This document shows, piece after piece, positions 1-34,722 of a stretch of DNA of 64,000 nucleotides; within the stretch, counting starts at the first letter, position 1, and each line of letters begins with the position of its first letter. The stretch spans positions 32,001 to 96,000 of the IMG/VR virus record IMGVR_UViG_3300028800_000062; one strand, given 5' to 3'. Source of the stretch: a virus. Under the pieces are notes generated by a model, which saw nothing but the letters and a program-made list of their open reading frames with translations, did no database searches and had not been told where the DNA came from. The translations under genes were made by a program, and so were the position numbers.

Positions 1-948
1 ACCTTCTGTGGACCGGGCAAGTCATTCCCGGTTCCCGACTGCGCGCACGTCACCGCGGCCCGCCGGTTGATTGGCAAAGCCAAGGTCAGCGAAGACGTCA
101 AGAAGCGCATTCTTTCCTGCGTGGCGGGCAAGGCCAAATCCATGTCCTGCTCCGCAGAAGAGAAGAAGGACCGGATCACCGACAACCCGGCATTCAAAAC
201 GCTCACCGACCACTGGGTGGATGGGCCGGACGACGGCAAGAAGCCGTTTACGCACTCCGCACAGATGTTGCAGCATATCGATGACACCCACATGGTGCAT
301 GAGGGTCTCGAAGAGCATGAACGGCCGCACTTCCGGGAGGCTCTCTACTGCCTGCAGAACCTGTGGTCCGCCAGCGGCTCGATCGATCATATCAAGCAGC
401 ACATCGCCAATCGGGGCGAAACCATTATTCCGGCCAAGGATCTCGAACAGCTGCATGAGGCCATCGGCCGCTATGAGCTGGACCTGAAAGAGCAGAAGGC
501 AGAGATTGACCTGCTCACTCAGGCGCAGAAGGCCATCATCACCGACTCCAAGCAGAACATCGCGCGGATCGTGGTATTGAGCAGCATGCTGCTGAAGGAA
601 CAAGGTTTTGAGGGACTGGACACCGCCCAAATCCAAACTGAGATTGATGCCCGGTCCAAGCGTAGTCTGGACAGCCTGAAAGATTCCCTGGACGATCTGC
701 AGAAGAAGCTCCAGGGTGATCCGGCGCCCTCCGGTAAGAAACAGGATGATGTTCCGGTCCGGCAGGTCAGTGACAAGGCCCAAGTAGCGGATCCGCCCGT
801 CACCACCGAAGCCCCCTCTCAGGACAGCGAGACTGAGGAACCCCAGGTGAACGCGAATATGCTGCGAGCCCTTTCCCCGCGTGAACGCACCCGCGTAATG
901 CTCCGGGAAAGATCCCGCCGGCTGAAACAGTCGCTGGGAACGAACTAA
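1..948 (+). CDS. Prohead scaffold/protease-associated protein, C-terminal part (5' truncated by window)
   Basis: Frame is open from base 1 (TFCGPGKSFPVPDCAHVTAARRLIGKAK...), followed by a long coiled coil; lies two genes upstream of the capsid gene. Function inferred from position and coiled coil. Confidence 0.6.
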   Translation, partial: TFCGPGKSFPVPDCAHVTAARRLIGKAKVSEDVKKRILSCVAGKAKSMSCSAEEKKDRITDNPAFKTLTDHWVDGPDDGKKPFTHSAQMLQHIDDTHMVHEGLEEHERPHFREALYCLQNLWSASGSIDHIKQHIANRGETIIPAKDLEQLHEAIGRYELDLKEQKAEIDLLTQAQKAIITDSKQNIARIVVLSSMLLKEQGFEGLDTAQIQTEIDARSKRSLDSLKDSLDDLQKKLQGDPAPSGKKQDDVPVRQVSDKAQVADPPVTTEAPSQDSETEEPQVNANMLRALSPRERTRVMLRERSRRLKQSLGTN

Positions 949-19387: not shown

Positions 19388-20089
19388 ATGTCAACGACTC
19401 CAGGTCTAACGGATGCCATCGCGAACAGCACCAACAACACATTTTCCGGCAGCGACATCCGTGCATACATAGGCCCTGTCCCGTTCGGACAGATGCAGGC
19501 GATTTCTTATTCCATCAGCCGGGAAAAAGCTCCCGTCTATACCATGGGCAGCCCGGATCCTCGCAGCTTCTCGCGCAACAAGCGCGGTATCGCAGGCTCG
19601 CTGGTATGGATCCTGTTTGACCGGCACGCTCTGCTGGCTCTGGCCGCACAGCTTAGCGGTACCTTCCTCGCTAACCGCGATGACGTGAATCCGACATTCC
19701 TGTCGCCGATCGCGCCGAGCGGAGGTTATGTTTCGCCGCAGGTGTTCAATACCACGCTGGTGCGCAACGACGGTACTTTGCCGGCCGCAGTAGGCAGCGC
19801 CGCCGCCGCGCAACCCCTTCAGGATATGTCCCTGGCCGCTAACTTCAAAGTGGTGTCTGCACCCTGGTATTCGGATCAGATCCTGCCGTTTGATGTCACC
19901 ATGTCCGGCGTGAATGAGTATGGCGCCGCGATGGGGATGAAGATCTTCGGTGTCGAAATCCTGAATGAAGGCTACGGGGTGTCCGTGGATGACACGGTGA
20001 GTGAGATGCAGGCTACCTTCGTGGCCCGTTCCATCGAGCCGTGGCAGGCAGTGGCTACCAACCTGAACAGCTCATCCTGTCTGGTCTAA
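19388..20089 (+). CDS. Tail tube protein (major)
   Basis: FSGSDI...QAISYSISREKAPVYTMG...FSRNKRGIAGSL...DQILPFDV...GVEILNEG..SVDD; directly follows the sheath; strong SD. Confidence 0.8.
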   Translation: MSTTPGLTDAIANSTNNTFSGSDIRAYIGPVPFGQMQAISYSISREKAPVYTMGSPDPRSFSRNKRGIAGSLVWILFDRHALLALAAQLSGTFLANRDDVNPTFLSPIAPSGGYVSPQVFNTTLVRNDGTLPAAVGSAAAAQPLQDMSLAANFKVVSAPWYSDQILPFDVTMSGVNEYGAAMGMKIFGVEILNEGYGVSVDDTVSEMQATFVARSIEPWQAVATNLNSSSCLV

Positions 20090-20116
20090 TCCTACCGGCT
20101 GGACTGAAAGGCGCGC

Positions 20117-21001: not shown

Positions 21002-21007
21002 TTCCTA

Positions 21008-22297
21008 ATGCCCAACGCCTCGGTTAATGTCAACGTCATCTCCGCCAGCACAGGTCAACCGGTGCAATCCGCGATCTATGTCAACGGGAGCTACACCTCC
21101 AATCTTGGTGCAGCGTCGCTGGCGGTGCAGGTCCCACAAGGGCAGACGACCGAAGTCAAGGCAGTCCCGATTAACAGCGACGGCAGCAAGGATAACTCCC
21201 GCGCAGCTACGCGGATACTGTCGGACCAGGATTCTAATGCTACGATCACGGTTCCCGACAGCCTTCCCAGCCCGGCAACCCTGACGCTCGAGGCGCCGGC
21301 CAACAGTAGCGGCGTATCCGTTTCCCTGGCCGGGCCTCCGGATTCAAACGGTAATCCTATCTCCCAGCAAGGTACCACGGACGACAACGGGCAGTTGACC
21401 TTCGCGAATCTACCGGCGGGAGACTATACCTACTCCGCATCCCATCCTGCTTACCAGGACCTGTCCCAGCAACCGATCTCCCTGGCCGCCGGCCAAACTG
21501 CCACCGCGGGCATGCCGATGGTGGCCAAGACCAGCCCGCAGGCGATCGGCGGCAGTTTACCGGTCTCCGATAACGGCGCCAATGCTTCTTCGAACACCGC
21601 ACTGGCCGGCCTGGCCGACGCGCAGTCGCAGGACGCGGCCTTCGACCAGGTCTATTCGAACACTTCCTGGGACACCTACTTTACCTCCGCCCAGTGCCGG
21701 GTCTATATAGGCGACTTGTTCATCGACGAGCTGCAGGCCATCCAGTATTCAGCGCCCAACAACATCATTCCCGTGCATGGATACGCCAGCCGCTTCGCCG
21801 ACGCCTGGGCCGACGGCAAGAGTTTGATTCAGGGCCAGCTGATTCTTAACTACGTCTCTGAGACGTACATGTACACGGTACTGGCCAACTACCGCAGGTT
21901 TCTGGTCTCGCAGTCGGTCCCGAGCGCGGCCGCGGATGCCACCAGTCAGAGTGCCCAGCAGCTCGGCAACGCCTTGAAAGCCCGTAAGTATCTGTTGGCC
22001 TCCAGTGAGGATGCCGATACTACCGCCATCGACAGCACCATTCAGACCCTGGTGCAGGACCCGGCCACGGTGCAGCAGCATAAACAGAATCAGCAGGGTC
22101 GTGGCCCGGGCTCCATTTATATCAACGCCATCTACCAACCCATCGCTTTTGACATCCGGGTGGAGATCGGGTCAGGGTCTTCGCGCACCTATAGGCAACT
22201 AGAAAAGTGCAGGCTGACCGGCAACGACCAGATCATCGACCAGTCCGGCAACGTGATCGCGGACGTCTACAGTTTCCTCGCCCGCCGGCTGCGTTAA
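21008..22297 (+). CDS. Tube-like paralogue with N-terminal beta-sandwich (carboxypeptidase-regulatory-like) domains
   Basis: TTDDNGQLTFANLPAGDYTYSASHPAY; C-terminal YFTSAQCRVYIG...IPVHGYAS...GKSLIQGQLILN...YSFLAR tube-like domain. Confidence 0.6.
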   Translation: MPNASVNVNVISASTGQPVQSAIYVNGSYTSNLGAASLAVQVPQGQTTEVKAVPINSDGSKDNSRAATRILSDQDSNATITVPDSLPSPATLTLEAPANSSGVSVSLAGPPDSNGNPISQQGTTDDNGQLTFANLPAGDYTYSASHPAYQDLSQQPISLAAGQTATAGMPMVAKTSPQAIGGSLPVSDNGANASSNTALAGLADAQSQDAAFDQVYSNTSWDTYFTSAQCRVYIGDLFIDELQAIQYSAPNNIIPVHGYASRFADAWADGKSLIQGQLILNYVSETYMYTVLANYRRFLVSQSVPSAAADATSQSAQQLGNALKARKYLLASSEDADTTAIDSTIQTLVQDPATVQQHKQNQQGRGPGSIYINAIYQPIAFDIRVEIGSGSSRTYRQLEKCRLTGNDQIIDQSGNVIADVYSFLARRLR

Positions 22298-23311: not shown

Positions 23312-23725
23312 ATGTCCACTGAAGGTCAAGAACCGTTCGATCCCATGAAAATACTGGCCGATATTCCCAACGCGCCTACCAAAGCGCATATCGACTCCTG
23401 GAAGGCACAGGTACCAAACGGCATCATCCGGGTATTCCCCGCCTCGGGAAAACGGGTGTTCTTCTTACGCGGCATCACCGGACTGGAGATGCGCAAGATG
23501 CAGGAGAAGATCCTACCCGGCGCCCCTAATCCGGAACAGGAGTTCCAACTGCTGGCGCTCGAGGCCGCCTGTGTGTGGACCAACCTCACCGCGGACCATA
23601 AGCTCACCGCGGAGTATCTGCGCACCGCGACCGCCGGCCTGCCTTTCACGCTGTGGGCCATTGTGGAGTCGCTGTCGGACTTCATTCCGCCGCAACAGCT
23701 GTATGAGATGACCTTCGATCTGTAA
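23312..23725 (+). CDS. Putative tail assembly chaperone
   Basis: 137 aa, SD aaggag; IDSWKAQ...FFLRGITGLE...AGLPFTL; position between tube genes and the giant tail genes. Confidence 0.55.
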   Translation: MSTEGQEPFDPMKILADIPNAPTKAHIDSWKAQVPNGIIRVFPASGKRVFFLRGITGLEMRKMQEKILPGAPNPEQEFQLLALEAACVWTNLTADHKLTAEYLRTATAGLPFTLWAIVESLSDFIPPQQLYEMTFDL

Positions 23726-23742
23726 GTTCGCCGCGGCGCATC

Positions 23743-24324
23743 ATGCGTACTCCAGTTCAAGTCGGCACCTGGCCTGTATTGGGTCTGGATGGGAATGGCA
23801 AGCCCGTTCCCGGTCCTTCCATGGTCGTGGCCTGGCGCCGGCTGAGCTGGAAAGAGTACGACTACTTCCGCGTCCTGCAGGAAGATCCCAAGATACTCTA
23901 CGCGGAGGTTTACGAGAAGTGCCTGGTACGGGGACCTTCCTTGGAAAAGGCGCCCGCCGGCATCGTATTCCATATTGGCAAGCAGGAGTTAGAGACTTGC
24001 CCTTTCTCAGGCCGGTTTGACAGTATTTCCAAAGAGCTTGAAAAGGCCCGCACGCAGGTTCAGGGAAGCTGGCTGCTGACGGCGCAGGCTCTGATTGCCT
24101 GCACGCTGCACTATTCCCTGGACGAAGTAGCCACTTGGCCGGCCGACCTGTTTTTCCAGCGCGTAGCCCTGGCCGAACAATTAGCTGGGAAGCCTCTTGA
24201 TCCGGCTGACCCCAAGAACCCTCCGCAGGCGCCTAGCCGGCGGAAACGAGGACCTTCGAATCCCGCCACTACTCCCCGGGCTCCCCAGTCTGGGGATAAC
24301 CAACAATTTACCTTCACACGGTAA
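23743..24324 (+). CDS. Putative second tail assembly chaperone
   Basis: WRRLSWKEY...APAGIV... resembles the preceding protein; follows it directly. Confidence 0.5.
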   Translation: MRTPVQVGTWPVLGLDGNGKPVPGPSMVVAWRRLSWKEYDYFRVLQEDPKILYAEVYEKCLVRGPSLEKAPAGIVFHIGKQELETCPFSGRFDSISKELEKARTQVQGSWLLTAQALIACTLHYSLDEVATWPADLFFQRVALAEQLAGKPLDPADPKNPPQAPSRRKRGPSNPATTPRAPQSGDNQQFTFTR

Positions 24325-24339
24325 TAGGAGAAACAACGA

Positions 24340-24894
24340 ATGAAGACATGCAAAGTACTTTTGAGCGGGATGATCGGTCTGTTATTGTTTGTTTGCGCGC
24401 TAAGTGCGCAGGTACGCCCGGGAGCTAGTATGCCCTACGGCTTCATCGGCAACTGGGCGCCGCCCGCCAGCTATGGAGTGTTACTCTCGCCGCGCATCAC
24501 GGTAGTGCAGGCAAATTGGCCGGCCGGCATCCTTACTGGGGTGTCCGCCTATCCGCAGTTTGCGTCCACCGTAGGCCAGCAGATTGGTGCCTCGTTCTTC
24601 CCGTGGGGCACATATATGTGTCCGGCCGGACTCACCAGCGGGGCGAACGGATGCGGTTATTTGGGCAATCCGTATGATCCCACAGGTCAAAGCAGTGGCA
24701 AGTACGGCAAGCCTGTAATTGTGGCCGCGCAAGTAACAGCCGCGGACAACTGGCAGCAAACGATTTCGAATCCTTTGGTGGCCGTCGCGCCTCCGTCGAA
24801 TGCCGTACCTTCTACCGCTGCGTTGTTAAGCCAAGCGGTAGCCGCCCTGCAGCAAGCGATTACGCTGCTGAATAAGGTGGCCGCCCAACAGTAG
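24340..24894 (+). CDS. Signal-peptide protein with C-terminal coiled coil
   Basis: MKTCKVLLSGMIGLLLFVCALSA-Q; Cys pair CPAGLTSGANGC; SD aggag. Confidence 0.6.
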   Translation: MKTCKVLLSGMIGLLLFVCALSAQVRPGASMPYGFIGNWAPPASYGVLLSPRITVVQANWPAGILTGVSAYPQFASTVGQQIGASFFPWGTYMCPAGLTSGANGCGYLGNPYDPTGQSSGKYGKPVIVAAQVTAADNWQQTISNPLVAVAPPSNAVPSTAALLSQAVAALQQAITLLNKVAAQQ

Positions 24895-24900
24895 GTCTGT

Positions 24901-25128
24901 ATGAACGGACTACTCCGTTTTCTGTCGAACAACTGGCCAGTGCTGAGTTTGTTTGCGCTGGCCTTTGTAGTTACCCTGCCGAAAGATCCACCTGCCTCGC
25001 TGCGACAGACGCCGCGGTGGTTCTACAGCTGGATACGAGAGGGCCTTATGACTTTCGTATCCTTCCGCACTCCGTCCAGTGCGGCGAAAGAAACTTCCCC
25101 AAAAGTAACAGGAGAACCTCAAATATGA
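24901..25128 (+). CDS. Small membrane protein (holin-like candidate)
   Basis: 75 aa with one hydrophobic helix and a charged C-terminus. Confidence 0.45.
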   Translation: MNGLLRFLSNNWPVLSLFALAFVVTLPKDPPASLRQTPRWFYSWIREGLMTFVSFRTPSSAAKETSPKVTGEPQI

Positions 25129-25364
25129 CGCCAGCCCCCAGTTTAGCCGATGCTCTTGCGCAGGTCGAAACCATGCAAGCTGCACTGTCCAACGCAGATG
25201 GTGCTTTGGATCAGGCCAACCAGAAACTAGCGGCAGCCCAATCTGCCCAACAAACCGCAGCGTCGGCCGACACGGATGCTATCAATTCCGCCAACAGCGC
25301 TATCGACGTGGCCATTGACGTTTTGACTGCCACCAAGCGACCGGTCCCGACGCCCGCTCAGTAA
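25125..25364 (+). CDS. Small Ala-rich coiled-coil protein
   Basis: SD ggag at 25111, ATG 25125 overlapping the previous stop (ATGA); 79 aa. Confidence 0.55.
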   Translation: MTPAPSLADALAQVETMQAALSNADGALDQANQKLAAAQSAQQTAASADTDAINSANSAIDVAIDVLTATKRPVPTPAQ

Positions 25365-25374
25365 CTGAACCCAG

Positions 25375-28300
25375 GTGCATCAATTCCCCAGTCCCGACAA
25401 GATCCATTTCTTCGATGTCGAGACTGGGGGTTTGCCCGAACATCGTGCGTTCAATTTCTCCCTTCCAGAGTTTCAGAAGTGGTCCGCCCTCAAAGGCGAC
25501 GCGTATTACAAACACCCCTACGCCACCTTCCATGCCAACAGTCCGCTCCTGCAGTTATACGCTACAGGCTTGCCGCACTTTGATCCCGCCAAAGAAGACA
25601 GACTCCAGCATTTAACCCAAGGCACCGCTCCACATTCCAGTCTGATCCGCTTGCCGGATAAACCCTGGACTGTTGAGAACGGCGATAAGGTTCCGCTGCT
25701 GATCAGCGACTGGGCCCGCGACAACGGCCTGGTGAAGGCTTCGCAAAGCGCCCAGCGCAGCGAAGAGGAAACCCTGCGTCTCTTCTTCGAGGATCTGGAA
25801 GCCAAGTTGGCTCTTGGAGAGCCGGTCAACTTAGGTGGCTGGAACGTTGGTTACGATCTAAGTGCGATCGAGCGCGCCACGCGCCGGTACGCTTCGCTAG
25901 AACCCTACCAGGGTTGGCTGGGTCGCCAGATCTCCGCCGGCCAGGTCCGTGTGGTAGAGGGTTTTGATGTATTCGGCGACACCATTCTCAAATATGCTGA
26001 GCACAACGCCGAGTTCGCCAAAAGCAACTTGCGCATGTTCCCTTCCGGAAAGGTCGCCAGCAATCTGGAAGAGTTGCGTAAGGTCCCAGGATGGAAACTG
26101 GGAAACATCATTGATGCAATTGGCGGCTCGGAAGCTTTTCATATCAGTGCGGAAGCTGCCAAGTTCCATGGCGCCTTCTTCGATACTCAGATTACAGCGT
26201 CGGCCTACACCCGCTTGTGGGAGGCGCAGGCATCCGTTCGCGAGATTCAGCCTGGTGAGGATTTCGCCGCGGCGTTCCGCCAGGCCTTTACCGAGGCCGG
26301 CCTACACCCGGCTTCCGTCTCTTCGGAAGACTGGATGTCGCGCATCTTCCAGCGTTCCGGTTGGCAGCGAGAGTTCCAGCGGGCATCTAAGGAGGGAGCG
26401 CGCGATGCCGGCTTAGCTTTTGAAGCGGTCCGGTCTCCCAGTAAGGTTCTGATTGGTGCGGCGGTCTTGGGCGGTATGGCGATCGCCACCAACCTGGCGT
26501 TTGGCAAACGCAAGGACCGCCAGACTCAGATCACAGGCCTTGACGACCTGGGTTTGGCTGCTGAACAACGGCATGCGTTGACCCCCTTCGGTTCCGGCTG
26601 GCAGGGACTGGACGATCCTTCTCCGGTCAATCTGAGCACCCTGGCAATAGCCGGAGGCACCTACGGTGCCTTCCGCTACTACACCCGCAACTATCCGCGG
26701 TCCGCCGTCAAGGTCTTTAGCGCGGCGGAGCGCCGCTTCCCGCGGCAGACTCTGAATTACTTCGGCTTCTCCCAGTTTGCGTCTAGTTTTCTGCCCACAA
26801 AACTGGACGTAGAGGCCGCACAGCTAGTCAATAACGGCAGTCTCACCGCATTAGGAGAACACTTCCAGAGACTGCTCGGCGCCGATCTGAATCTCGCGCA
26901 ATTGGCCACGGAAGGTCTGCATTTCGAACGCACCGGAAAGTCTGCGTACATGCACCTGGCCGGCACTGATCGCAGTGTCCGGTTCCTGGGCTACGATCCG
27001 GCGACTCAGAAAAGCGGTAGCCGTTGGGCAGGTGCTTCGGCCCGCTGGAAAGCTCCGATAAACGAACCGGATCGCTATCTTCCCAACGTAGTAGCAGGCG
27101 ACACCTGGGCAGCCCGTTGGAAGTCTTCCTGGAAACAACACGTCCTCAGCCAGACCCCTATCAATCCCAAGTACGGCGTCGAAGCCGAGGGACTCCGTTT
27201 CCAACCCGTCTTTGCGGAACAAGAAGGCCATCTTCTGGCGAACCTGCACCAGAAGGTAGGCATCACGGCGCTCGAACTGGCCGAACAACCGCAGAAGCTG
27301 TTTGCGCGCATCGGACTGGGTCTCAAGAATAACTCATGGAATTCCGCCGGAGGTCTGGTAGGGAAGTTGCTGCTCAAGCGCGCCCTACCGATCGCCGCCG
27401 GCCTGGGTGCTTTGGATTATGCCGACTACCTGACCGGCCACCGGCTTTCCGCCGGCGTCCTGGGAATCGGACCCAAGGCTAATGTAGCCCGGGCTGAACT
27501 CACCGATCGTGTCCCTGGAGCCCGGCGCACAACAGACTGGTATCAGCGTCATATCCCCGGATCCCAGTGGGGTCCGCTGGCACTCCCGCTGACAGGCATG
27601 GTCACCGGCGAGCTGGTCGAGATGGGCTACGAGGCCCTGACCGGCATCAAGCTGGCGGGCAAGGCCAGTAAGTTCGGACGAAAAGCCGGCCTGCTGGCCA
27701 TGCTGCCTTTCATCCCTGGCATGCTGGGCAGCCGCAAGAGCGCGCGGGAGCTGCGCGACATCTACTCAGGCGAGCAACCGGTTCCGGTCCGCAGCGGCAG
27801 GTGGTGGTGGCTCAACCAGACTCCCTGGGGAGGCGGCCGCATTACAGGCTATCGGCCGCACTGGTATGCCCGGATGAAGAGTCGCCCGGAGCGCGTGGCA
27901 CTGTACGGCTCGGAGAAGGAATACTGGAGGCATCATCCTGTCCTGCACCCTCTGAACTGGCTGAAGAACCCTTATCAGCTAGAGGAAGCCACCTATCAAG
28001 ACCGGCCGTACCCGATTACCTCGCCGGCCTTCTCCAATATTCCGCTCATCGGTCCGGTACTAGCTGCGACTCTGGGGCGCCTGGTCAAACCGCCCAAACG
28101 CATGCATGAGTCGGAATGGAACGGGGACGACTACACTCTATTCAGTCCGCGTGTGGAACCCAGAGGGCCCGCCGGCCTTGCGCCCGCACATCCGCGGGAA
28201 GAGTTCGGTTTGAGCGATGTGGTCAACCGGCAGACCGAACAAGCTGCTGAGTTCACCGGCCTATCCGGCTTCCTGGCCAAGACCGTCCTCAACAAGGCCC

Positions 28301-30336
28301 GAAACAACACCGGCTTTGGCCAGACGGTCTACTTCGAAGGCAGTCGGCAGTTGACCAGCTGGTCACGCAAGTACTATGACGAGCAGGTAGGCGCCGGCAT
28401 GGGCCCGGACGTAGGCCTGGACAGCACTGCAGAATACTCGGAGCCCTTCCGCAGGTTTATCCAACGGGACCTGAAAACCCTGCAGGCAAACGAGATTCGC
28501 AACCAGATGCCGCACTGGCTGCCGGGCGACGATTACATGACGGACTTCCGCACCGGGGATCCGTATACGAAGGTGGATAGCGGCGCTTCCCGCCTGCCAG
28601 GCCCAGGTTACGAGGCTCTGCATCCGGAACTGAAGGGTGTTCCCTTCGAACAGTATCCGGATCTCGAACGCTACAAGATTCTCTCCGATGTAGCACCCTG
28701 GAGCAAGGAGTGGTTCATCTACAACACCAAGTTGAATGCAGCCACCATGCAGGATCCGGAGAGGCGCATCGCCTATGAACAGGTCCGCGACCGCGCCCAG
28801 GCAATCAAGGATTCATCCGAAGAGTTCCAGCATCGGCGCTTCTCAGCTCCCGTCGAACGCCTGACAGGGGTGGTCAAGCGCGCCACGCCGGCGGGTATCG
28901 AGATGGAGGACGGCCGCCACGTCCAACTAAGCGCCTTGGGCATGCGCATGTCAGACCTCTCTTCCCTGGCCCTTGGCGAGAAGAATAACCTGACCCGGCA
29001 GCAGGCGGCCGCGGAAGCCGAGCAGAGACAACAGCGTCTCCTCGAACGACTGTCTGCACTGAATGGACAGAGCATTGAGATGGTGGTTCCTCAAGGCACC
29101 GGGGAACACACCCTGCGCAGCCGCGCGGTGGTCCTGGTAGACGGGCATAACCTGAACCGGGAACTGATCAAAGCCGGACTGGCTCGCGAGGATCCCAACC
29201 TGGCCGGCGCGGAATATCAGGAGATGAGCGGCCCGCTGGGAAAAACCCTGGGGCGACTGGGAGAGGCGGCCTCTTTTATGGGAGACCAGGCGGCCATCAA
29301 CCCGATGCGCTGGACCTGGGGTCATGAGCAGAACAAGTTCTGGGGTAGTCGCGAACCCCTTGAAAAGTATACTTACAACGAACTGTACGGCGCCCGCATG
29401 CAGCATTGGGAGACGCCTTTGAAGAGTTTCGCCAAGCCCTGGCTGAGGTCCCTGTCGCACAAGTTGACCAATAAGGTCGTGGCTCCCCAGCAAGTGCAGG
29501 AACGACGGGACTTTGATATGCTTACCGACGTCCTAGAATACCTGCGCGCCACTACCCGCGGATATACTAACAAGAAGAGCAGGACAGCTATCGGAGCTGA
29601 TGTACTGGCGGACCCCGCCTATCTCCGATCCACACTTTCCGGGCGGGATAAGTACTACTTTCCAGAGTTCCTGCGGGAGACCCGGGACGAGGAACGCAGT
29701 AAGATCCTCGAGGCCGTGCCGGAAGATTTCGCACGCATCCTGCAAGGACAGTGGGTCAAGCAGGATATCGAAGTAGCCCGCGCCGCACATCAGCCGGTGC
29801 CTGAGAAAGTGACCGAAGGCGGTCGCCTACTAACCATGGATGATCTGCAGGCCTATCAAAAGGCCGAGAAGAGTCACGAAACCAAGTTGGACTACGGAAA
29901 CTGGCTGCGTTCGCGCGAAATCGCCGGCTTCTTCTCCCGGAAGAACGTCCGGTTGCCGGAGGATCCGGATTCCCCCGTGTACGCCGAGAACATTGATTAC
30001 GAGGATGTCAAAGCCAAGATCATTCAGGAAGAAGGCCTAGACTACCACGATTTCAATATCTTCGACGACCGCGCGGCGACACTGTGGCGCAAACCTTACC
30101 TGGACGGCGCCGTACGGGAACTGACTGAGGGGAACAACAAATCCGTGGAAGACCTACGCCAGGCTGTGGAGAATATGATGCTGGCCGGCGGATCTAAGGA
30201 GTCGGAAGTGCGGATCACGTCCCTCAGTTCCCGCAAGCAGCGCCAGAACCTGAAAATACGAGTGGAAGAACAACCGGATGAAGACATCCTGCGGGATGTG
30301 CGTCGGAATCCGGAGGCTTACCTGAATCAGAACTAG
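25375..30336 (+). CDS. Giant tape-measure-position/ejected protein with N-terminal DEDDh 3'-5' exonuclease, membrane helices and degenerate SNase-like domain
   Basis: FFDVETGGL, GGWNVGYD, FHGAFFDT (ExoI/II/III); several hydrophobic Gly/Ala helices; VLVDGHNLNRELIKAGLA resembles the thermonuclease C-terminus. Confidence 0.7.
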   Translation: MHQFPSPDKIHFFDVETGGLPEHRAFNFSLPEFQKWSALKGDAYYKHPYATFHANSPLLQLYATGLPHFDPAKEDRLQHLTQGTAPHSSLIRLPDKPWTVENGDKVPLLISDWARDNGLVKASQSAQRSEEETLRLFFEDLEAKLALGEPVNLGGWNVGYDLSAIERATRRYASLEPYQGWLGRQISAGQVRVVEGFDVFGDTILKYAEHNAEFAKSNLRMFPSGKVASNLEELRKVPGWKLGNIIDAIGGSEAFHISAEAAKFHGAFFDTQITASAYTRLWEAQASVREIQPGEDFAAAFRQAFTEAGLHPASVSSEDWMSRIFQRSGWQREFQRASKEGARDAGLAFEAVRSPSKVLIGAAVLGGMAIATNLAFGKRKDRQTQITGLDDLGLAAEQRHALTPFGSGWQGLDDPSPVNLSTLAIAGGTYGAFRYYTRNYPRSAVKVFSAAERRFPRQTLNYFGFSQFASSFLPTKLDVEAAQLVNNGSLTALGEHFQRLLGADLNLAQLATEGLHFERTGKSAYMHLAGTDRSVRFLGYDPATQKSGSRWAGASARWKAPINEPDRYLPNVVAGDTWAARWKSSWKQHVLSQTPINPKYGVEAEGLRFQPVFAEQEGHLLANLHQKVGITALELAEQPQKLFARIGLGLKNNSWNSAGGLVGKLLLKRALPIAAGLGALDYADYLTGHRLSAGVLGIGPKANVARAELTDRVPGARRTTDWYQRHIPGSQWGPLALPLTGMVTGELVEMGYEALTGIKLAGKASKFGRKAGLLAMLPFIPGMLGSRKSARELRDIYSGEQPVPVRSGRWWWLNQTPWGGGRITGYRPHWYARMKSRPERVALYGSEKEYWRHHPVLHPLNWLKNPYQLEEATYQDRPYPITSPAFSNIPLIGPVLAATLGRLVKPPKRMHESEWNGDDYTLFSPRVEPRGPAGLAPAHPREEFGLSDVVNRQTEQAAEFTGLSGFLAKTVLNKARNNTGFGQTVYFEGSRQLTSWSRKYYDEQVGAGMGPDVGLDSTAEYSEPFRRFIQRDLKTLQANEIRNQMPHWLPGDDYMTDFRTGDPYTKVDSGASRLPGPGYEALHPELKGVPFEQYPDLERYKILSDVAPWSKEWFIYNTKLNAATMQDPERRIAYEQVRDRAQAIKDSSEEFQHRRFSAPVERLTGVVKRATPAGIEMEDGRHVQLSALGMRMSDLSSLALGEKNNLTRQQAAAEAEQRQQRLLERLSALNGQSIEMVVPQGTGEHTLRSRAVVLVDGHNLNRELIKAGLAREDPNLAGAEYQEMSGPLGKTLGRLGEAASFMGDQAAINPMRWTWGHEQNKFWGSREPLEKYTYNELYGARMQHWETPLKSFAKPWLRSLSHKLTNKVVAPQQVQERRDFDMLTDVLEYLRATTRGYTNKKSRTAIGADVLADPAYLRSTLSGRDKYYFPEFLRETRDEERSKILEAVPEDFARILQGQWVKQDIEVARAAHQPVPEKVTEGGRLLTMDDLQAYQKAEKSHETKLDYGNWLRSREIAGFFSRKNVRLPEDPDSPVYAENIDYEDVKAKIIQEEGLDYHDFNIFDDRAATLWRKPYLDGAVRELTEGNNKSVEDLRQAVENMMLAGGSKESEVRITSLSSRKQRQNLKIRVEEQPDEDILRDVRRNPEAYLNQN

Positions 30337-30353
30337 TCTTGGAGATTATTCCT

Positions 30354-33299
30354 ATGTATAAGACGTTTCTTTTGATGATCTTCACCACTATTTCGGTCTT
30401 TGCCCAGTGCCCGGCAGGCACGGTGAATGTAAAACTGCTGCCAGGCTTCTGGGCTTGCGTGCCTTCCGGATCTGTAGGGTCAAAGTCGACACCTCCTCCA
30501 GTAATACCTCCCGCGTCCATGACTTCCGCGGCTGATGCCGCCTACTTGTCCAAAGGCAACAACGCTGTCGTACGAACGGTGCAGTCTAAACTGTCGGATA
30601 TCTATAATCTTGCGGATTACGGTGGGGTCTGTGACGGAACGACGGACAACACTGCGGCTTTCTCCAATGCGATCGCGGCCGTGGTGGCAACCGGCGGTGG
30701 TCAACTGCAGCTTCCGTCCGGAACTTGTATGAGCGGAACGATCAACCTGCCGGAAGGTGTGGCATTTGCAATGGTAGGCCAGGGCGTGGACGCAACGACG
30801 ATCAAGTTGAAGAACGGCGTGAACGCAGACCTGATTACGCAGGCGGACTTCGGTGCTTTGACAGGGTCGGACACCGCGGTTGGATTATTCCGCGTGAAGT
30901 TGTCGGCAATGACGCTGGACGGTAACAAAACACACCAAGCCGGCACGTCCTGGGTACTGCGGACCTACGGGCACGGCAACTATTGGTCGGACCTGGTGAT
31001 CCAGAACGGATTGACCGGAGGTAGATATAGCGAGTGGGCTTTGGACGCGTCGTTCTCAGCGCCGGCTAACGATCTGGAAGACTCATACACCAACGTGAAG
31101 ACGATCTTCAATGGAGTCACGCAGGCACTCTCGACCGTAACACTCACGTTTAACGCCACTTATGGGAGTGGTTACACGCACTTCATCACGATCGGTGCGA
31201 ACACGTACTCATACATTCAGCAATTGAACGACACCTCGGCGACAATCGCCCAGGCGTTATTGAGCTTGATCACTGATCGGAACGCAACGGCTACGGCGAG
31301 TGGACAGACTGCGATTGTGCTGACGGCCGCGGCAAACAGTGGCGCAACGGTGAGCGTATCGGCTTCAGACGGTAATGCAGGTGGTAGTCTGATCGAGAGT
31401 CAGTCCGGGGACGGGTTTCTGTTTCGCGGACCGCATGACTCGGTGTTTCAGGACTTCATCAGTTACGGCAACACAGGATGGGGCCTGCACAACCAGACCA
31501 GCTCGACTTATAACGGCGGAGGTCTGCACTTCTCCCATCTCAATGTTTACATGAATACGCTGGGCGGCGCTTACAACGAAGACGGAATGGTGTGCAATGA
31601 TTGTGCGCTGACCACGGCGACAGGACTGGGGCACTTGATCGCGCAGTATTCCGGATCTACTACGATCACGGCGGGAACCTGGGCCGGGCCTGTCGGGTTT
31701 GAGTGCCGGAACGCGTCGGACAGTTTGCAGGGGATTGTGGTGAACACTACAGTGGATGGAATGTTCCTCAACGGCTGCGAATACTCGCGTATCGACGTGA
31801 CTACTTTTCAGACCAATAGCCCAATGTTCCGAGTGAAGTCGTCGGCAACTAATAACACCATCATAGTGAACGGAGAGAGCACCGCAAGCACTGTGTTGTT
31901 CGATCCGTCAGGGTTAAGTGCCTTTCCCGCTACCAACTGCGTGCAGGTCAACGTCCATGGTCCGGCCGGATCCATGGCGCACAAGTATTATCAGCCCTGC
32001 ATAGACTCAGCTCTCCAAATCGATAATACTAATCAGTTTGTAGGTGTCAATGTAACTCCCATTTATGCACTGGATGTCCAGCCGCCGCAGCCCTCGAGCA
32101 TCACGTACGGCTTTTCAACAACCTGCACCGGATGTGCGACCGGTTACACGCACTTCATTACCGTAGGTAGCAGCACTTACACCCATATACAAGCGGGTGG
32201 GGACACTTCGGCGGGAATTGCCGCGGCGCTGTGCGCCTCGATCACGACGGCGCCGGACACGAACGCCACCTGCACGGTCAATAACAACTTTGTGATTCTG
32301 ACGGCGGCGAACAATAATCGCACGTATGTGGCGCTGAATGCATCCGACCAGGATGGGGTGGCAAACCTGTTCGAGAACCTAAGTGGCTATTCAACACCGG
32401 TTCGTGTTTCCAACCCGGCCCAGAATGCGGCATTGCTACTGGAACAACAGGGATCCACAAACTATCTGATTTCCGCGCAGGCAAACCTGACTAGTCCGGC
32501 ACAACTGCAATTGCAAGGTCCATCGAGTTCCGCGTTGCAGACCTTTAACATCCTGGGCAAGAACATTGGGTTCTACAATCAGGATGCCTCTAACGCCTGG
32601 TTGTCGGTGATGATCCAGGGTGGTTTGAACCAGGGAACCAACCCGTATTTGACGGTGCAAAGCAAGGCAGGCGCGGTGCAGTTCCAGATTACGTCGACAG
32701 GAGCGCTGCTCGCTAACACAAACGTCACCAGCCCCCAGTTCTGTATTCAGTCTAGTTGTATTAGCGCGTGGACCGCCGCGCAGATCACTAATGCCTTGGA
32801 TTCTACCCAGACTTATGCTAACCCTGCCTGGTTAACAGGTGTGACCTTCGGCGGCACGGTCCTGGGTTCCACCGGCGGCACGATTTATAACAGCGCCGGC
32901 ACGGGGGATTCCTTACTGGTATTGAGAAGCAGTTCCAGTCAGGCCGCGGACGGAAAGGGAATTCTGCAGATCCAGAATAGCGCGGGAAGTAAGATCGCAC
33001 AGATCAATTATGACGGAGGGTACTGGGAAGGTGACGGGACTAATTACAAATTCGCTTTCCAGACTTCTACTCTTGGACTGTCGAGCGATGCGGTATTTGC
33101 ATTCAAGAACGCGAACAATGCCTTTTCCGGAGCCTATGATTTAGGCTTCGTCCGAGGCACCGTAGGTGTGCTCAAGATCACGAACGGATCCAGCGGATAC
33201 GGGGCGGTCGATGCTTCAGGGTATAGTGCCTCTGGAGTGGCCGGAGTAACGTCCACAACCTGCACGCAGTGGACAAACGGTCTGTGCACTCACAATTAA
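30354..33299 (+). CDS. Tailspike-like pectate-lyase-fold (beta-helix) protein with signal peptide
   Basis: MYKTFLLMIFTTISVFA-Q; RTVQSKLSDIYNLADYGGVCDGTTDNTAAFSNAI...GGGQLQLPSGT is the typical beta-helix entry motif; two inserted GYTHFITxG repeats. Confidence 0.75.
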   Translation: MYKTFLLMIFTTISVFAQCPAGTVNVKLLPGFWACVPSGSVGSKSTPPPVIPPASMTSAADAAYLSKGNNAVVRTVQSKLSDIYNLADYGGVCDGTTDNTAAFSNAIAAVVATGGGQLQLPSGTCMSGTINLPEGVAFAMVGQGVDATTIKLKNGVNADLITQADFGALTGSDTAVGLFRVKLSAMTLDGNKTHQAGTSWVLRTYGHGNYWSDLVIQNGLTGGRYSEWALDASFSAPANDLEDSYTNVKTIFNGVTQALSTVTLTFNATYGSGYTHFITIGANTYSYIQQLNDTSATIAQALLSLITDRNATATASGQTAIVLTAAANSGATVSVSASDGNAGGSLIESQSGDGFLFRGPHDSVFQDFISYGNTGWGLHNQTSSTYNGGGLHFSHLNVYMNTLGGAYNEDGMVCNDCALTTATGLGHLIAQYSGSTTITAGTWAGPVGFECRNASDSLQGIVVNTTVDGMFLNGCEYSRIDVTTFQTNSPMFRVKSSATNNTIIVNGESTASTVLFDPSGLSAFPATNCVQVNVHGPAGSMAHKYYQPCIDSALQIDNTNQFVGVNVTPIYALDVQPPQPSSITYGFSTTCTGCATGYTHFITVGSSTYTHIQAGGDTSAGIAAALCASITTAPDTNATCTVNNNFVILTAANNNRTYVALNASDQDGVANLFENLSGYSTPVRVSNPAQNAALLLEQQGSTNYLISAQANLTSPAQLQLQGPSSSALQTFNILGKNIGFYNQDASNAWLSVMIQGGLNQGTNPYLTVQSKAGAVQFQITSTGALLANTNVTSPQFCIQSSCISAWTAAQITNALDSTQTYANPAWLTGVTFGGTVLGSTGGTIYNSAGTGDSLLVLRSSSSQAADGKGILQIQNSAGSKIAQINYDGGYWEGDGTNYKFAFQTSTLGLSSDAVFAFKNANNAFSGAYDLGFVRGTVGVLKITNGSSGYGAVDASGYSASGVAGVTSTTCTQWTNGLCTHN

Positions 33300-33312
33300 G
33301 GAGTAGTCTTCA

Positions 33313-34722
33313 ATGAAGAACCTAGCCATACTGACCATGATCTTTGCAGGCGTCGCCTCCGCGCAATCTGCAGGCACCGCCTCCACGCAATGTCCTGCAG
33401 GCTCCAAACTGGTTGAGGTCCTGCGAGGCAGTTGGCAATGTACACCTCAGGCAAGCAGCGGAAAGAGCGCCAGCGCGCTTCCGGCAGCCCTTCCAACTTC
33501 TGTCATATTGGCTTCACGTACCAGCGCCACGGGATATGAACTCGCGGCCTGGGGAGATTCGTTGATTGCGGGCGGAGCTAATCAGACTGGATTGCAAGGA
33601 CCGCTGGCTACGCTACTGGGCCGGCCCGTCTATAACGGAGGCGTAGGGGGACAGACTTGTGCGCAGATCTCAGCCCGTATGCTGGCGGCAACAGACAAGA
33701 AGGGTCGCTTTGTTATTATATGGGCGGGCGTTAATGACTCCGGCAACAATTTCGCCACGGTGCCTGCTTGTATTGCCGGCATGGTTGCTTCCCTGGAGCA
33801 GCCTACCCGGTTCCTGGTAATCTCCCTGCTGCCGAACTCCGCCTGGGTCGGTACTTCCGCATTCACAGCCATGCAGGCCACAAATGCGGCTTTGAAGGCA
33901 GCCTATCCAAACAACTATTACGACGCGCTCGGGTACTTGCTCACGCAAGGCACCGGGACCGGACAGGACCAAATCGATGCGGCGGGTGGAATGACTCCGA
34001 CTTCGCTTCGCGCCGATGCCATCCATCCAACTACCGCGACCAATGTTCTATTGGCAAACCAGGTCGCCGCTTGGATTATAGCGCAGGATACACTGCAACT
34101 AGGCGCCGTACCGGTGTCCTCGATCAGCGACATCTTTGCCTCTCCGCCGGCACTGGGCGGAAATGTTCCACAGTCCGCCACACATACTCGCATGAACGTA
34201 CTCTCAGGTGGAACCTGGGACTACGGCACAGACCCCGCTACCGGCGGTACCGGGACCGGAATCGCGATCGGAACCAACATCGTCCCGGCGTATCACACAC
34301 TCACACTGGCGAGCAATTTGCTGGCTATGGGTGCCGGCGGCTTTACTCCGACAGACCCTATCGATATCCGGTCTTTCGGCGTGATCTCGATCGGTCAATC
34401 GAGCGGGTATGCCAACGTACTCAGCGCAGGACCCGGCAACACCATCCTAAAAGGCGCGGCCATCTACTTACAGGCTCCGGCCGGGACCAATATGCTTGGC
34501 ATCGGAACCGTCCGAGTATGCGTTGGACAGTCCTCGTGCTCAGTATCAGGCACAGGTCAGTTTGCCAACAAGGGAAACACGATTCGCTTTGCTGATGCGG
34601 CGCGCACGCCGGCCAGCAGTTCGGAAGCCTGCAATGCCGGCGAAGCATTCTTCGACGCCACATATTTGTACGTGTGCACGGCTACGAACACGATCAAACG
34701 CCTGACATTGACTGCTTTCTAA
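33313..34722 (+). CDS. SGNH/GDSL esterase with signal peptide and fibre-type C-terminal module
   Basis: Blocks WGDSL, NGGVGG, WAGVND, DAIHP; C-terminus PASSSEACNAGEAFFDATYLYVCTATNTIKR. Confidence 0.8.
   Translation: MKNLAILTMIFAGVASAQSAGTASTQCPAGSKLVEVLRGSWQCTPQASSGKSASALPAALPTSVILASRTSATGYELAAWGDSLIAGGANQTGLQGPLATLLGRPVYNGGVGGQTCAQISARMLAATDKKGRFVIIWAGVNDSGNNFATVPACIAGMVASLEQPTRFLVISLLPNSAWVGTSAFTAMQATNAALKAAYPNNYYDALGYLLTQGTGTGQDQIDAAGGMTPTSLRADAIHPTTATNVLLANQVAAWIIAQDTLQLGAVPVSSISDIFASPPALGGNVPQSATHTRMNVLSGGTWDYGTDPATGGTGTGIAIGTNIVPAYHTLTLASNLLAMGAGGFTPTDPIDIRSFGVISIGQSSGYANVLSAGPGNTILKGAAIYLQAPAGTNMLGIGTVRVCVGQSSCSVSGTGQFANKGNTIRFADAARTPASSSEACNAGEAFFDATYLYVCTATNTIKRLTLTAF

What the first reader, a model, noticed from the sequence alone, without database searches (positions are those of the whole stretch)
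25375..30336. DEDDh exonuclease fused to a giant membrane-helix tail protein with a degenerate SNase fold
Seen: complete ExoI-III motifs (DVE at 25414-25422, GWNVGYD, HGAFFD at 26167-26184) at the N-terminus, then several hydrophobic helices, and an SNase-like segment at about 28860-29190 in which the usual DGDT catalytic motif appears replaced (TPAG). Inference: an ejected protein that brings a 3'-5' nuclease into the cell at infection, for genome end processing, support of the neighbouring RNAP candidate, or degradation of defence signals or host nucleic acid; the SNase fold may only bind nucleic acid.
Basis: partly seen in the sequence, partly recalled or inferred. Interest (0 to 1): 0.7.

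Follow-up and report, generated by a model that had tools for sequence, protein, structure and literature searches.

The report
Nuclease-armed phage tail-internal protein
A giant soil phage carries, in the tail gene slot just before its tape-measure gene, a 1653-residue virion protein with an intact but very diverged 3'-5' exonuclease at its front end; relatives carry other nucleases on the same scaffold, so the phage probably injects a nuclease with its DNA.

Summary

- **Exonuclease:** aa 1-345 folds confidently (pLDDT 87.8). All 50 best structural matches are DnaQ-like exonucleases (Pol III epsilon Z 12.9, Cap18, RNase T, TREX1). No sequence library detects the domain. The D-E-D-H-D pentad is complete in 38 of 41 relatives that share only 25-35% identity.
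- **SNase-like domain:** aa 1158-1289 has a staphylococcal-nuclease fold (Foldseek E 3e-5; Z 8.2). Its Ca2+ and catalytic positions are not conserved anywhere in the family.
- **Scaffold:** aa 415-1653 is collinear with Bacillus phage 0305phi8-36 gp145, a virion protein found by mass spectrometry. gp145 lies between the tail chaperones and the tape measure.
- **What is new:** exonuclease, one TM helix and a conserved connector motif form a 414-aa add-on. It is present or absent between sister proteins. Other members carry a Vsr-like endonuclease or a canonical SNase at other sites.
- **RNA polymerase link:** the neighbouring RNA-polymerase-like giant is found in relatives with and without the exonuclease, so an obligate link is unlikely.

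Best reading: a tail-internal ejected protein that delivers nucleases. The target is unknown. This is a new variant of a known kind; earlier scan notes covered this same stretch.

The parts
25375..30336 (+). Whole gene, 1653 aa (P0001): gp145-like tail-module virion protein with an N-terminal nuclease add-on
   Evidence: Pfam, PHROGs and PDB sequence searches are empty. Homologues.
25375..26274 (+). DEDDh (DnaQ-like) 3'-5' exonuclease domain, aa 1-300. ExoI is D14/E16, ExoII is W156-N157...D161, ExoIIIh is H265...D270. It has about 125 aa of insertions compared with a minimal 175-aa core.
   Evidence: AF2 pLDDT 87.8. VIA: Pol III epsilon 1j53 Z 12.9, rmsd 2.7, 164 of 174 residues; Cap18 Z 12.0; RNase T Z 11.8. 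Foldseek top hits are all Orn/REXO2, RNase T or ExoI. Pentad kept in 38 of 41.
26275..26439 (+). Helical linker, aa 301-355
   Evidence: DSSP helices 297-307, 317-324 and 329-344 in the model
26440..26502 (+). Single strong transmembrane helix, aa 356-376
   Evidence: Kyte-Doolittle 19-aa mean of 1.95 here and 1.89 averaged over the family
26503..26607 (+). Conserved connector motif after the TM helix, aa 377-411: basic cluster, then DRQTQIxGL, about 10 residues, then RHxxT(D/P)FGSGWxG. Function unknown.
   Evidence: Unique in the window. It flanks the exonuclease on both sides in the unrelated 773-aa P0015.
26617..30333 (+). gp145-type scaffold, aa 415-1653. This is the part shared with the ~1300-aa family members that lack the add-on.
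   Evidence: P0024 (1310 aa) aligns from its residue 16 to aa 415 and on to the end, 43% identity. 0305phi8-36 gp145 is collinear from aa 645 to 1645. At least 254 clusters.
27355..28095 (+). Region with four conserved, moderately hydrophobic Gly/Pro-rich segments (aa 661-683, 734-755, 767-785, 882-907). It lies within the most conserved core and is W/R/P-rich around RSGRWW at aa 806.
   Evidence: family-averaged hydropathy and conservation; best-conserved part against cultured phages
28846..29241 (+). Degenerate SNase-fold (OB barrel plus helices) domain, aa 1158-1289, with a helical insertion at aa 1208-1227. Positions matching SNase D21, R35, D40, T41 and E43 are not conserved.
   Evidence: Pfam SNase scores only 14.4 bits against a cut-off of 21.
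29962..30174 (+). Most conserved C-terminal block, aa 1530-1600 (IDYEDVK...LWRKPYLDGAVRELT). It is also recognisable in 0305phi8-36 gp145. A docking role is inferred, not shown.
23312..24324 (+). Conserved pair of small genes (137 and 193 aa). In six related ~210-kb phage contigs this pair lies directly upstream of the gp145-like gene, in the tail-assembly-chaperone position.
   Evidence: tblastn E 1e-20 to 1e-37 in L005-L010; weak hit to the gene next to the ME3 chaperonin

Best explanation
The gene encodes a tail-internal virion protein of a jumbo myovirus of the 0305phi8-36 lineage. It is the orthologue of gp145, the gene that lies between the tail chaperones and the tape measure. Onto this ~1240-aa scaffold a 414-aa cassette has been grafted at the N-terminus. 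The cassette is a catalytically competent DEDDh 3'-5' exonuclease, a helical linker, one transmembrane helix and a conserved connector motif.

Proposed mechanism, by step:
1. Inferred from synteny and from the gp145 mass-spectrometry record: the protein is assembled with the tape measure inside the tail.
2. Inferred from the hydrophobic segments and by analogy with tape-measure and ejection proteins: on infection it is expelled ahead of the DNA and its hydrophobic segments enter the envelope.
3. Inferred by analogy with the N-terminal RNA polymerase of Thermus phage P23-45 gp96: the N-terminal exonuclease ends up on the cytoplasmic side, held at the membrane by its TM helix.
4. Shown only as fold plus conserved active site: it hydrolyses nucleic acid from free 3' ends before any phage gene is expressed.

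The module comes and goes between sister proteins. Other members carry a Vsr-like PD-(D/E)xK endonuclease or a canonical SNase on the same scaffold. I therefore read it as an accessory weapon that attacks resident nucleic acid, meaning host, prophage, plasmid or competing-phage DNA or RNA. I do not read it as a core step of the phage's own DNA metabolism.

The internal SNase-fold domain is an ancient, catalytically dead part of the scaffold. It is probably a binding or structural module.
For: - **Fold and active site:**. The end-points of the VIA alignment to epsilon (model 9..283 against chain 7..180) place D14/E16 on epsilon D12/E14 and H265/D270 on H162/D167 by simple offset. That mapping is my inference.
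- **Weak sequence echoes, all from DEDD exonucleases:** RNase T E 0.41, dnaQ E 0.12, Cas-associated DEDDh E 0.042 for P0012.
- **Virion and tail placement:** gp145 is annotated 'identified as virion protein by mass spectrometry' and lies between chaperonins gp143/144 and tape measure gp146 (PMC2147016). The order chaperone pair, gp145-like, 1600-1725-aa protein, hub is the same in six related contigs.
- **Add-on nature:** the ~1310-aa class starts at the equivalent of aa 415.
- **Accessory behaviour:** exo and no-exo forms are sister pairs at least six times in the scaffold tree. P0115 keeps an ExoI remnant.
- **Other nucleases on the scaffold:** PF18741/PF04480 is inserted at about aa 933 in 18 of the 120 tree members, three of which also carry the exonuclease. 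PF00565 with IDGDS / RLANINTPE / YGR motifs occurs in P0016 and P0109.
- **Telling case:** P0016 has lost ExoII D and ExoIII H but carries the canonical SNase.
- **Precedent for an enzyme at the N-terminus of a tail-lumen protein:** PMC10770324.
Against: - No experiment and no virion proteome exists for any exonuclease-bearing member. The tblastn search of 50,697 cultured-phage records matched only the scaffold (query residues 570 and beyond), so no cultured phage showed the module at that sensitivity.
- Ejection and membrane topology are pure inference. The positive cluster lies C-terminal to the TM helix. By the positive-inside rule that would put the exonuclease outside the cytoplasm if the helix were inserted from within.
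- A folded 300-aa domain does not fit a tail-tube lumen, so it would have to travel unfolded.
- A membrane-tethered nuclease next to the entry pore meets the phage's own DNA first. I found no DNA-modification genes that could protect it, though the record is only 68% complete.
- The fold does not tell DNA from RNA substrates.
Confidence: 0.55

Rival explanations
1. Pilot or end-processing enzyme for the phage's own genome. The exonuclease sits at the head-proximal end of the tail-internal protein, next to the leading DNA end. It holds or trims that 3' end on entry. This would expose 5' tails in terminal repeats for annealing or circularisation, or make the end a poor substrate for RecBCD/AddAB-type nucleases.
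For: The N-terminal position on a tail-lumen protein parallels P23-45 gp96, whose N-terminal enzyme acts on the entering phage DNA. 0305phi8-36 has a non-permuted genome with a 6.5-kb terminal repeat (abstract of PMC3357382). The membrane tether keeps the enzyme at the entry site. The closest folds include DNA-end enzymes: epsilon, TREX1, ExoI and ExoX.
Against: The module is absent from most family members, including sisters of exonuclease-bearing proteins, so it cannot be a core step. Endonucleases (Vsr-like, SNase) occupy the same scaffold, and they cannot do 3'-end trimming. The terminus structure of this phage is unknown because the record is linear and 68% complete.
Confidence: 0.2
2. 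An RNA or oligonucleotide exonuclease of the Orn / RNase T / REXO2 type. Delivered at time zero, it would remove short linear oligonucleotides or RNA 3' ends. Candidate targets are defence second messengers after ring opening, nanoRNA primers, tRNA CCA ends and host transcripts.
For: Foldseek ranks Orn/REXO2 and RNase T first. RNase T and 3'hExo are within 2 Z units of the best VIA hit. Injected signal-degrading enzymes have been predicted for polyvalent phage proteins (PMC7824862).
Against: DEDDh enzymes need a free 3' end and do not open cyclic messengers. The other modules on the scaffold (Vsr-like REase, SNase) point to DNA or bulk nucleic acid rather than signals. Foldseek E-values are weak, 0.02 at best.
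Confidence: 0.13
3. Partner of the neighbouring injected RNA-polymerase-like protein. It would trim RNA 3' ends, remove primers, or clear host nucleic acid from the template (one of the first reader's suggestions).
For: The two giants lie 4.4 kb apart in the same tail block. Earlier scan note e1-5791482 reads 34729-39906 as a tape-measure-slot RNA polymerase. I did not re-test that reading.
Against: Homologues of the 1725-aa protein are present downstream in four related loci without the exonuclease (L005, L006, L007, L010) and in two with it (L008, L009). There is therefore no co-variation.
Confidence: 0.05
4. The protein is structural only. The DEDDh domain would be a nucleic-acid or metal-binding relic with no catalysis, or the protein would act in the cytoplasm late in infection and not be ejected.
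For: No sequence library recognises the domain. It carries large insertions. The second nuclease-like domain in the same protein is clearly dead.
Against: All five catalytic residues are kept in 38 of 41 proteins at 25-35% identity, while neighbouring positions vary. The three that lost residues are exceptions, and one of them has gained a canonical SNase.
Confidence: 0.05

Closest known systems
Bacillus phage 0305phi8-36 gp145 (YP_001429636) and Acinetobacter phage ME3 gp035: 'virion structural protein' between tail chaperonins and tape measure
   Same: Collinear homology over the scaffold from aa 645 to the C-terminus, including the SNase-like part (BLASTP E 3e-32 plus further collinear segments). 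Same gene position. gp145 was detected in virions by mass spectrometry.
   Different: gp145 (1930 aa) and gp035 (1263 aa) have no Pfam domain, and neither aligns to aa 1-414. No function has been assigned to them. The exonuclease / TM / connector cassette was found only in metagenomic relatives.
Thermus phage P23-45 gp96: tape-measure protein with an N-terminal virion RNA polymerase (PMC10770324)
   Same: Same architectural logic: an N-terminal enzyme, then membrane segments, then a long tail-internal protein. It is delivered at infection and acts before phage gene expression.
   Different: The enzyme differs (two-barrel RNA polymerase against DEDDh exonuclease) and there is no sequence relationship. 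gp96 is the tape measure itself in a siphovirus. Here the carrier is the gene before the tape-measure-slot gene of a myovirus. gp96 activity is shown experimentally; here nothing is.
DnaQ-like DEDDh exonucleases: Pol III epsilon (1J53), CBASS Cap18 (7T2S), RNase T (3NGY), TREX1, 3'hExo/ERI1, Orn/REXO2
   Same: Same fold (Z 10.5-12.9) and the same D-E-D-H-D catalytic pentad in the same order.
   Different: 13-20% identity. No Pfam, NCBIfam or PADLOC model reaches significance. About 125 aa of insertions. Fused to a TM helix and a 1240-aa virion scaffold. A HMMER search of 1.84 billion representatives found only members of this phage family and no cellular exonuclease.
Polyvalent proteins and MuF-type toxin fusions of phages (Iyer et al. 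2017, PMC5512222)
   Same: Same concept: virion-packaged multidomain proteins with swappable catalytic 'warheads', nucleases included, injected with the DNA for conflict with the host or with rival elements.
   Different: Those are head-packaged (MuF or portal-associated) or conjugation-linked. The paper mentions neither DEDD exonucleases, SNase nor tape-measure or tail carriers. Here the carrier is a tail-module protein.
Staphylococcal nuclease / Tudor-SN SN domains
   Same: The fold of aa 1158-1289 (Foldseek E 3e-5; Z 7.8-8.2). 0305phi8-36 gp145 still shows IDxxT and RLxGV sequence relics.
   Different: The Ca2+ ligands and the catalytic Arg and Glu are not conserved. A 20-aa helical insertion is present. 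The Pfam score is below the cut-off. Like the SN domains of Tudor-SN and extended Tudor domains, it is most likely non-catalytic.

Membership tests
DEDDh (DnaQ-like) 3'-5' exonuclease superfamily | RNase H-like alpha/beta fold of the DnaQ type | tested here: met
   AF2 pLDDT 87.8. All 50 best of 48,161 chains are DnaQ-like exonucleases. The best is 1j53, Z 12.9, rmsd 2.7, 164 of 174 residues.
DEDDh (DnaQ-like) 3'-5' exonuclease superfamily | ExoI D-x-E, ExoII D and ExoIII H-x4-D, in this order | tested here: met
   D14/E16, D161, H265/D270. Complete in 38 of 41 homologues.
DEDDh (DnaQ-like) 3'-5' exonuclease superfamily | Significant match to a curated sequence model (Pfam RNase_T PF00929, NCBIfam dnaQ, PADLOC DEDDh) | tested here: not met
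   No Pfam hit at E<=10. PF00929 finds nothing in the genome. Best values are E 0.12, 0.042 and 0.41 against PDB RNase T. Superfamily membership therefore rests on fold plus motifs, not on any named family.
DEDDh (DnaQ-like) 3'-5' exonuclease superfamily | Metal-dependent 3'-5' exonuclease activity | not testable with these tools
   Needs an enzyme assay.
Staphylococcal nuclease (PF00565) | SNase OB-barrel plus three-helix fold | tested here: met
   Foldseek E 3.2e-5, probability 1.0. VIA gives SNase 1sta Z 7.8 and SND1 Z 8.2, then a drop to Z<5 for generic OB folds.
Staphylococcal nuclease (PF00565) | Ca2+ ligands D21/D40/T41 and catalytic R35/E43/R87 | tested here: not met
   TPAG replaces DGDT. 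The positions after strand 3 are S-A-L-G-M. None of these columns is conserved in 12 homologues. The mapping uses secondary-structure register, not a printed structural alignment.
Staphylococcal nuclease (PF00565) | Pfam gathering score | tested here: not met
   14.4 bits against a cut-off of 21, E 0.052, and only 28 residues aligned.
0305phi8-36 gp145-like tail-module virion proteins (unnamed family) | Collinear homology to gp145 over the scaffold | tested here: met
   BLASTP E 3e-32, 3e-21, 8e-11 and 9e-5 in collinear order. tblastn against the phage collection.
0305phi8-36 gp145-like tail-module virion proteins (unnamed family) | Gene position: after the tail chaperone pair, before the tape-measure-slot gene and the gp27-like hub | tested here: met
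   In this window two unconserved ORFs (24340-25364) and, downstream, two more genes (30339-34722) are intercalated.
0305phi8-36 gp145-like tail-module virion proteins (unnamed family) | Presence in purified virions | not testable with these tools
   Known only for gp145 itself, from the GenBank note.
Tail tape measure protein | Length proportional to tail length; extended helical protein in the tube lumen; directly follows the chaperones | tested here: inconclusive
   The position fits and hydrophobic segments are present. However the protein contains globular domains. In 0305phi8-36 the tape-measure role was assigned to the next gene, gp146. The tail length of this phage is unknown.

The most novel reading that the evidence does not exclude
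The gp145-like tail-internal protein of this large, mostly soil-borne jumbo-phage lineage is a modular platform for delivering nucleases. It would be the phage-tail counterpart of 'evolved' VgrG/PAAR toxins of type VI secretion. Three chemically different nucleases (DEDDh exonuclease, Vsr-like nicking endonuclease, SNase) have been grafted independently at three sites. They are gained and lost quickly, and they are injected ahead of the genome to destroy resident or competing DNA. The TM helix plus the DRQTQIxGL...FGSGW connector would be a portable 'cargo-loading' cassette that also moves the exonuclease onto other virion proteins such as P0015.
Probability: 0.35. Interest if true: 0.8.

Novelty: new variant of a known kind. 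Interest (0 to 1): 0.62.

Why it matters
Enzymes that a phage brings in with its DNA act before any defence or any phage gene can respond. Few such enzymes are known: N4 and P23-45 RNA polymerases, T4 Alt, P1 Dar. No nuclease riding on a tail-internal protein turned up in my literature searches.

This family has at least 254 sequence clusters, nearly all from metagenomes. Nuclease domains have been attached to one tail protein again and again, which points to a widespread strategy of injected nucleases.

It also gives 0305phi8-36 gp145 a first functional lead. That protein has been known from virion mass spectrometry since 2007 with no function assigned.

The exonuclease domain is invisible to Pfam, NCBIfam, PHROGs and PADLOC, so current annotation pipelines miss it. 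A profile built from alignment A1 would fix that.

The domain is small enough to express and assay directly.

Tried and rejected
- **Sequence libraries on the whole protein** (Pfam, PHROGs, PDB): nothing. A profile of the family against PDB gave only RNase T at E 0.41.
- **phmmer of the SNase-like segment against PDB:** only chance hits.
- **Megablast of 20 kb against cultured phages:** no match.
- **ESM Atlas on the scaffold core:** only unnamed clusters at 0.84, below the level that means anything.
- **PADLOC and NCBIfam on the exonuclease domain:** sub-threshold only.
- **A second copy of the connector motif in the window,** for example on the neighbouring 1725-aa protein: none.
- **A separate exonuclease gene within 10 kb in relatives that lack the module:** none. 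The apparent stand-alone 260-aa exonuclease P0013 is cut by the end of a 907-bp contig.
- **DNA-modification genes that could protect the phage's own DNA** (thymidylate-synthase-like, TGT/DpdA, N6/N4 and C5 methylases): none in the 146-kb record. The record is only 68% complete, so this is inconclusive.
- **The protein as the tape measure itself:** considered and left open.
- **The N-terminal motifs as a chance match:** rejected on fold and conservation.
- **Not done:** I could not read model coordinates, so the clustering of the five catalytic residues in space was not measured. It rests on the alignment ranges.
Full report
**1. What is there**

The window is part of a 146.7-kb IMG/VR virus record estimated to be 68% complete. 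ORF 25375-30336 (+) is uninterrupted and encodes 1653 aa. It starts with GTG, 10 nt after the stop of the preceding ORF, with no obvious Shine-Dalgarno sequence. The start is supported by two close homologues that begin at the same place.

The surrounding genes form a contractile-tail module:
- sheath, 17367-19268
- tube and tube paralogues, 19388-22297
- a conserved pair of small genes, 23312-24324
- this gene
- two intercalated genes, one of them a GDSL-type esterase
- a 1725-aa protein
- a 1795-aa hub-like protein with an SLT domain

**2. The N-terminal exonuclease**

No sequence library sees a domain here:
- Pfam at E<=10 on the isolated 340 aa
- PHROGs
- PDB by phmmer
- PF00929 against the whole genome
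- PADLOC and NCBIfam

A full HMMER pass over 1.84 billion representative proteins found only 17 relatives. Nearly all are ~1630-1660-aa orthologues, and none is a cellular exonuclease.

With a 14-sequence alignment (A1), AlphaFold2 gave a confident model of aa 1-345 (pLDDT 87.8, pTM 0.86). Aligning that model against 48,161 PDB representatives gave DnaQ-like exonucleases in all 50 listed rows:

| Match | Z |
|---|---|
| Pol III epsilon 1j53 (rmsd 2.7, 164 of 174 residues) | 12.9 |
| Cap18 | 12.0 |
| RNase T | 11.8 |
| 3'hExo | 11.3 |
| DinG exonuclease domain | 11.2 |
| TREX1 homologue | 11.2 |
| ExoI | 10.9 |

Foldseek's best hits were all from the same superfamily (Orn/REXO2, RNase T, Pop2/Caf1, ExoI), though weak at E 0.02. 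The ends of the epsilon alignment (model 9..283, chain 7..180) place D14/E16 on epsilon D12/E14 and H265/D270 on H162/D167. That mapping is my arithmetic, not a printed alignment.

Across 41 family members with this domain, at 25-35% identity to the query, the pentad D-E-D-H-D is complete in 38. I therefore regard an active DEDDh 3'-5' exonuclease as very likely. The fold does not say whether the substrate is DNA or RNA. The domain is about 300 aa, so it carries roughly 125 aa of insertions compared with a minimal core.

**3. The SNase-like domain**

Pfam gives only a sub-threshold SNase hit (14.4 bits, cut-off 21). The model of aa 1110-1345 (pLDDT 78.5) matches staphylococcal nuclease by Foldseek (E 3.2e-5, probability 1.0). 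By VIA-align it matches the SN domains of SND1/Tudor-SN (Z 8.2-8.0) and SNase itself (Z 7.8). Scores then fall to Z<5 for generic OB folds. The matched range is aa 1158-1289.

In the family alignment the turn that holds D19-G20-D21-T22 in SNase is TPAG here and varies elsewhere. The stretch after strand 3, where SNase has R35, D40, T41 and E43, carries no conserved acidic or basic residue.

It belongs to the ancient scaffold. 0305phi8-36 gp145 aligns through this region and still shows IDxxT and RLxGV relics.

**4. The scaffold and its place in the virion**

tblastn against 50,697 cultured-phage records hit only eight records. These include Bacillus phage 0305phi8-36 ORF145 and Acinetobacter phage ME3 gp035, both annotated as virion structural proteins. 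The hits covered only residues 570-1161.

Pairwise BLASTP shows that gp145 is collinear with aa 645-1645. In 0305phi8-36, gp145 was 'identified as virion protein by mass spectrometry'. It lies between the two tail chaperonins gp143/144 and the tape measure gp146. [quoted passage not shown]

Six related ~210-kb metagenomic contigs show the same order: sheath, tube, chaperone pair, gp145-like, a 1590-1725-aa protein, hub.

The protein has one strong TM helix (aa 356-376) and four conserved, moderately hydrophobic Gly/Pro-rich segments in its best-conserved core. This is typical of tape-measure and ejection proteins. That comparison is from general knowledge, not tested here. Location in the tail lumen and ejection are inferences.

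**5. The exonuclease is a removable cassette, and one of several nuclease modules**

A search with the core (aa 640-1160) found at least 254 clusters. The 120 tree members were classified as follows:

| Class | Typical length (aa) | Number of the 120 tree members |
|---|---|---|
| No add-on | ~1300 | 64 |
| Exonuclease cassette | ~1630-1700 | 36 |
| REase_MTES_1575/DUF559 (Vsr-like PD-(D/E)xK) domain inserted at about scaffold aa 933 | ~1410-1500 | 15 |
| Exonuclease and Vsr-like REase insert together | 1501-1794 | 3 |
| Exonuclease domain plus a canonical SNase domain near the C-terminus (P0016, P0109) | 1742, 1761 | 2 |

- The ~1310-aa form aligns from its residue 16 to aa 415 of this protein, at 43% identity to the end. 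The add-on is therefore aa 1-414: exonuclease, helical linker, TM helix and a conserved connector (basic cluster, DRQTQIxGL, about 10 residues, RHxxTDFGSGWxG).
- The canonical SNase insert keeps IDGDS, RLANINTPE and YGR, so it is probably active. The Vsr-like insert keeps the D...E-x-[DE]-G..H signature.
- P0016 has lost ExoII D and ExoIII H while carrying the canonical SNase.
- On a maximum-likelihood tree of the scaffold (120 sequences, 1238 columns, FastTree LG+gamma), I rooted on the seven most distant members. I left out P0002, which is the query's twin, and all proteins under 1200 aa. Exonuclease-bearing and exonuclease-less proteins are sisters at least six times: P0007/P0107, P0094/P0108, P0035/P0076, P0078/P0088, P0101/P0111 and P0105/P0096.
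- P0115 retains an ExoI-like remnant followed directly by the TM helix and connector, which looks like a deletion scar.
- The losses are not gene-calling artefacts. In L005 the preceding gene ends 6 nt before the start, and no exonuclease is encoded within 10 kb.
- The cassette also occurs in a different 773-aa protein, P0015. There it is flanked on both sides by a TM helix plus connector and followed by an HExxH region.

**6. How it probably works**

Shown:
- a DEDDh fold with a conserved active site
- a dead SNase fold
- orthology to a virion protein
- a fixed position in the tail module
- the accessory, modular nature of the nuclease domains

Inferred:
- The protein lies inside the tail with the tape measure and is expelled first.
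- Its hydrophobic parts enter the envelope.
- The N-terminal enzyme reaches the cytoplasm tethered by its TM helix. This is the arrangement proposed for the N-terminal RNA polymerase of P23-45 gp96 (PMC10770324).

The module is dispensable between close relatives, and endonucleases occupy the same scaffold. I therefore favour a conflict function, the destruction of resident or competing nucleic acid at time zero, over a core role in the phage's own DNA metabolism.

Main difficulties:
- The topology is unknown, and the positive cluster is on the C-terminal side of the helix.
- A folded domain must pass through a narrow tube.
- The phage's own DNA is the nearest substrate, and I found no modification genes in the incomplete record.

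Homologues of that 1725-aa protein occur in four loci without the exonuclease and in two with it. I did not re-examine whether that protein is a polymerase. That claim comes from earlier scan note e1-5791482.

**7. Comparison and novelty**

The closest relative by descent is gp145 of 0305phi8-36, which has no assigned function and no exonuclease. The closest by logic are the P23-45 tape-measure/RNA-polymerase fusion and the polyvalent or MuF-toxin proteins. The text of the polyvalent-protein paper mentions neither DEDD exonucleases, SNase nor tail carriers.

Full-text searches for tape measure or virion together with exonuclease domain or DnaQ, and for virion-associated nucleases, found no description of such a fusion. 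Those searches cover open-access papers only.

I class it as a new variant of a known kind: an injected enzyme on a tail-internal carrier, with a new enzyme class and a new carrier family. The host is probably Acidobacteriota. This is weak evidence.

**8. Verdict**

- Observation: confirmed.
- Interest: 0.62. It is a clean, testable case, and the modular nuclease pattern is the surprising part. Nothing about delivery or target is demonstrated.

Noticed in passing
window 26503-26607 (aa 377-411); also P0015 in L004:3900-6221: A strongly conserved connector follows the TM helix: a basic cluster, DRQTQIxGL, about 10 residues, then RHxxT(D/P)FGSGWxG. It persists in P0108 and P0115, which lack the exonuclease. 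In the unrelated 773-aa P0015 it flanks the exonuclease on both sides. It could be a processing site, a loading signal or a membrane-proximal fold. No library recognises it.
   Followed up: partly
L004:3900-6221 (P0015, Logan SRR30280145 contig): A 773-aa protein carries the same DEDDh cassette between two TM-plus-connector copies and ends in a region with an HExxH motif (HEQIH). The gene just upstream encodes a Prok-JAB (PF14464) protein. This is a different carrier for the same exonuclease.
   Followed up: partly
window 24340-25364: Two ORFs (184 and 115 aa) lie between the conserved chaperone pair and the gp145-like gene. They have no counterpart in six related loci, where the chaperone pair abuts the gp145-like gene. 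The 115-aa ORF has a weak 'minor tail protein' PHROG hit (E 1e-4).
   Followed up: partly
window 30339-34722: Two genes are intercalated between the gp145-like gene and the 1725-aa gene: a 986-aa protein with no hits and a 469-aa GDSL-type lipase/esterase with tail-fibre PHROG hits. In most relatives the two giants are adjacent. P0004's contig has six different genes there, including Laminin_G_3 and GDSL. L007 has an AAA+/ClpB-like ATPase and a C1 peptidase. This is a variable cargo island inside the tail operon.
   Followed up: partly
window 19388-22297: Three consecutive tail-tube paralogues (233, 294 and 429 aa) all hit PHROG 9206. That PHROG is labelled 'major head protein', but it corresponds to the tail tube gp140/gp141 of 0305phi8-36 according to the GenBank notes. 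The label is misleading and has propagated to ME3.
   Followed up: partly
L009:9237-9893 (- strand), next to P0016: A GIY-YIG (weak Pfam hit) gene sits on the opposite strand immediately upstream of the gp145-like gene that carries the canonical SNase insert. It may be a homing endonuclease, which could be one way modules move at this site.
   Followed up: no
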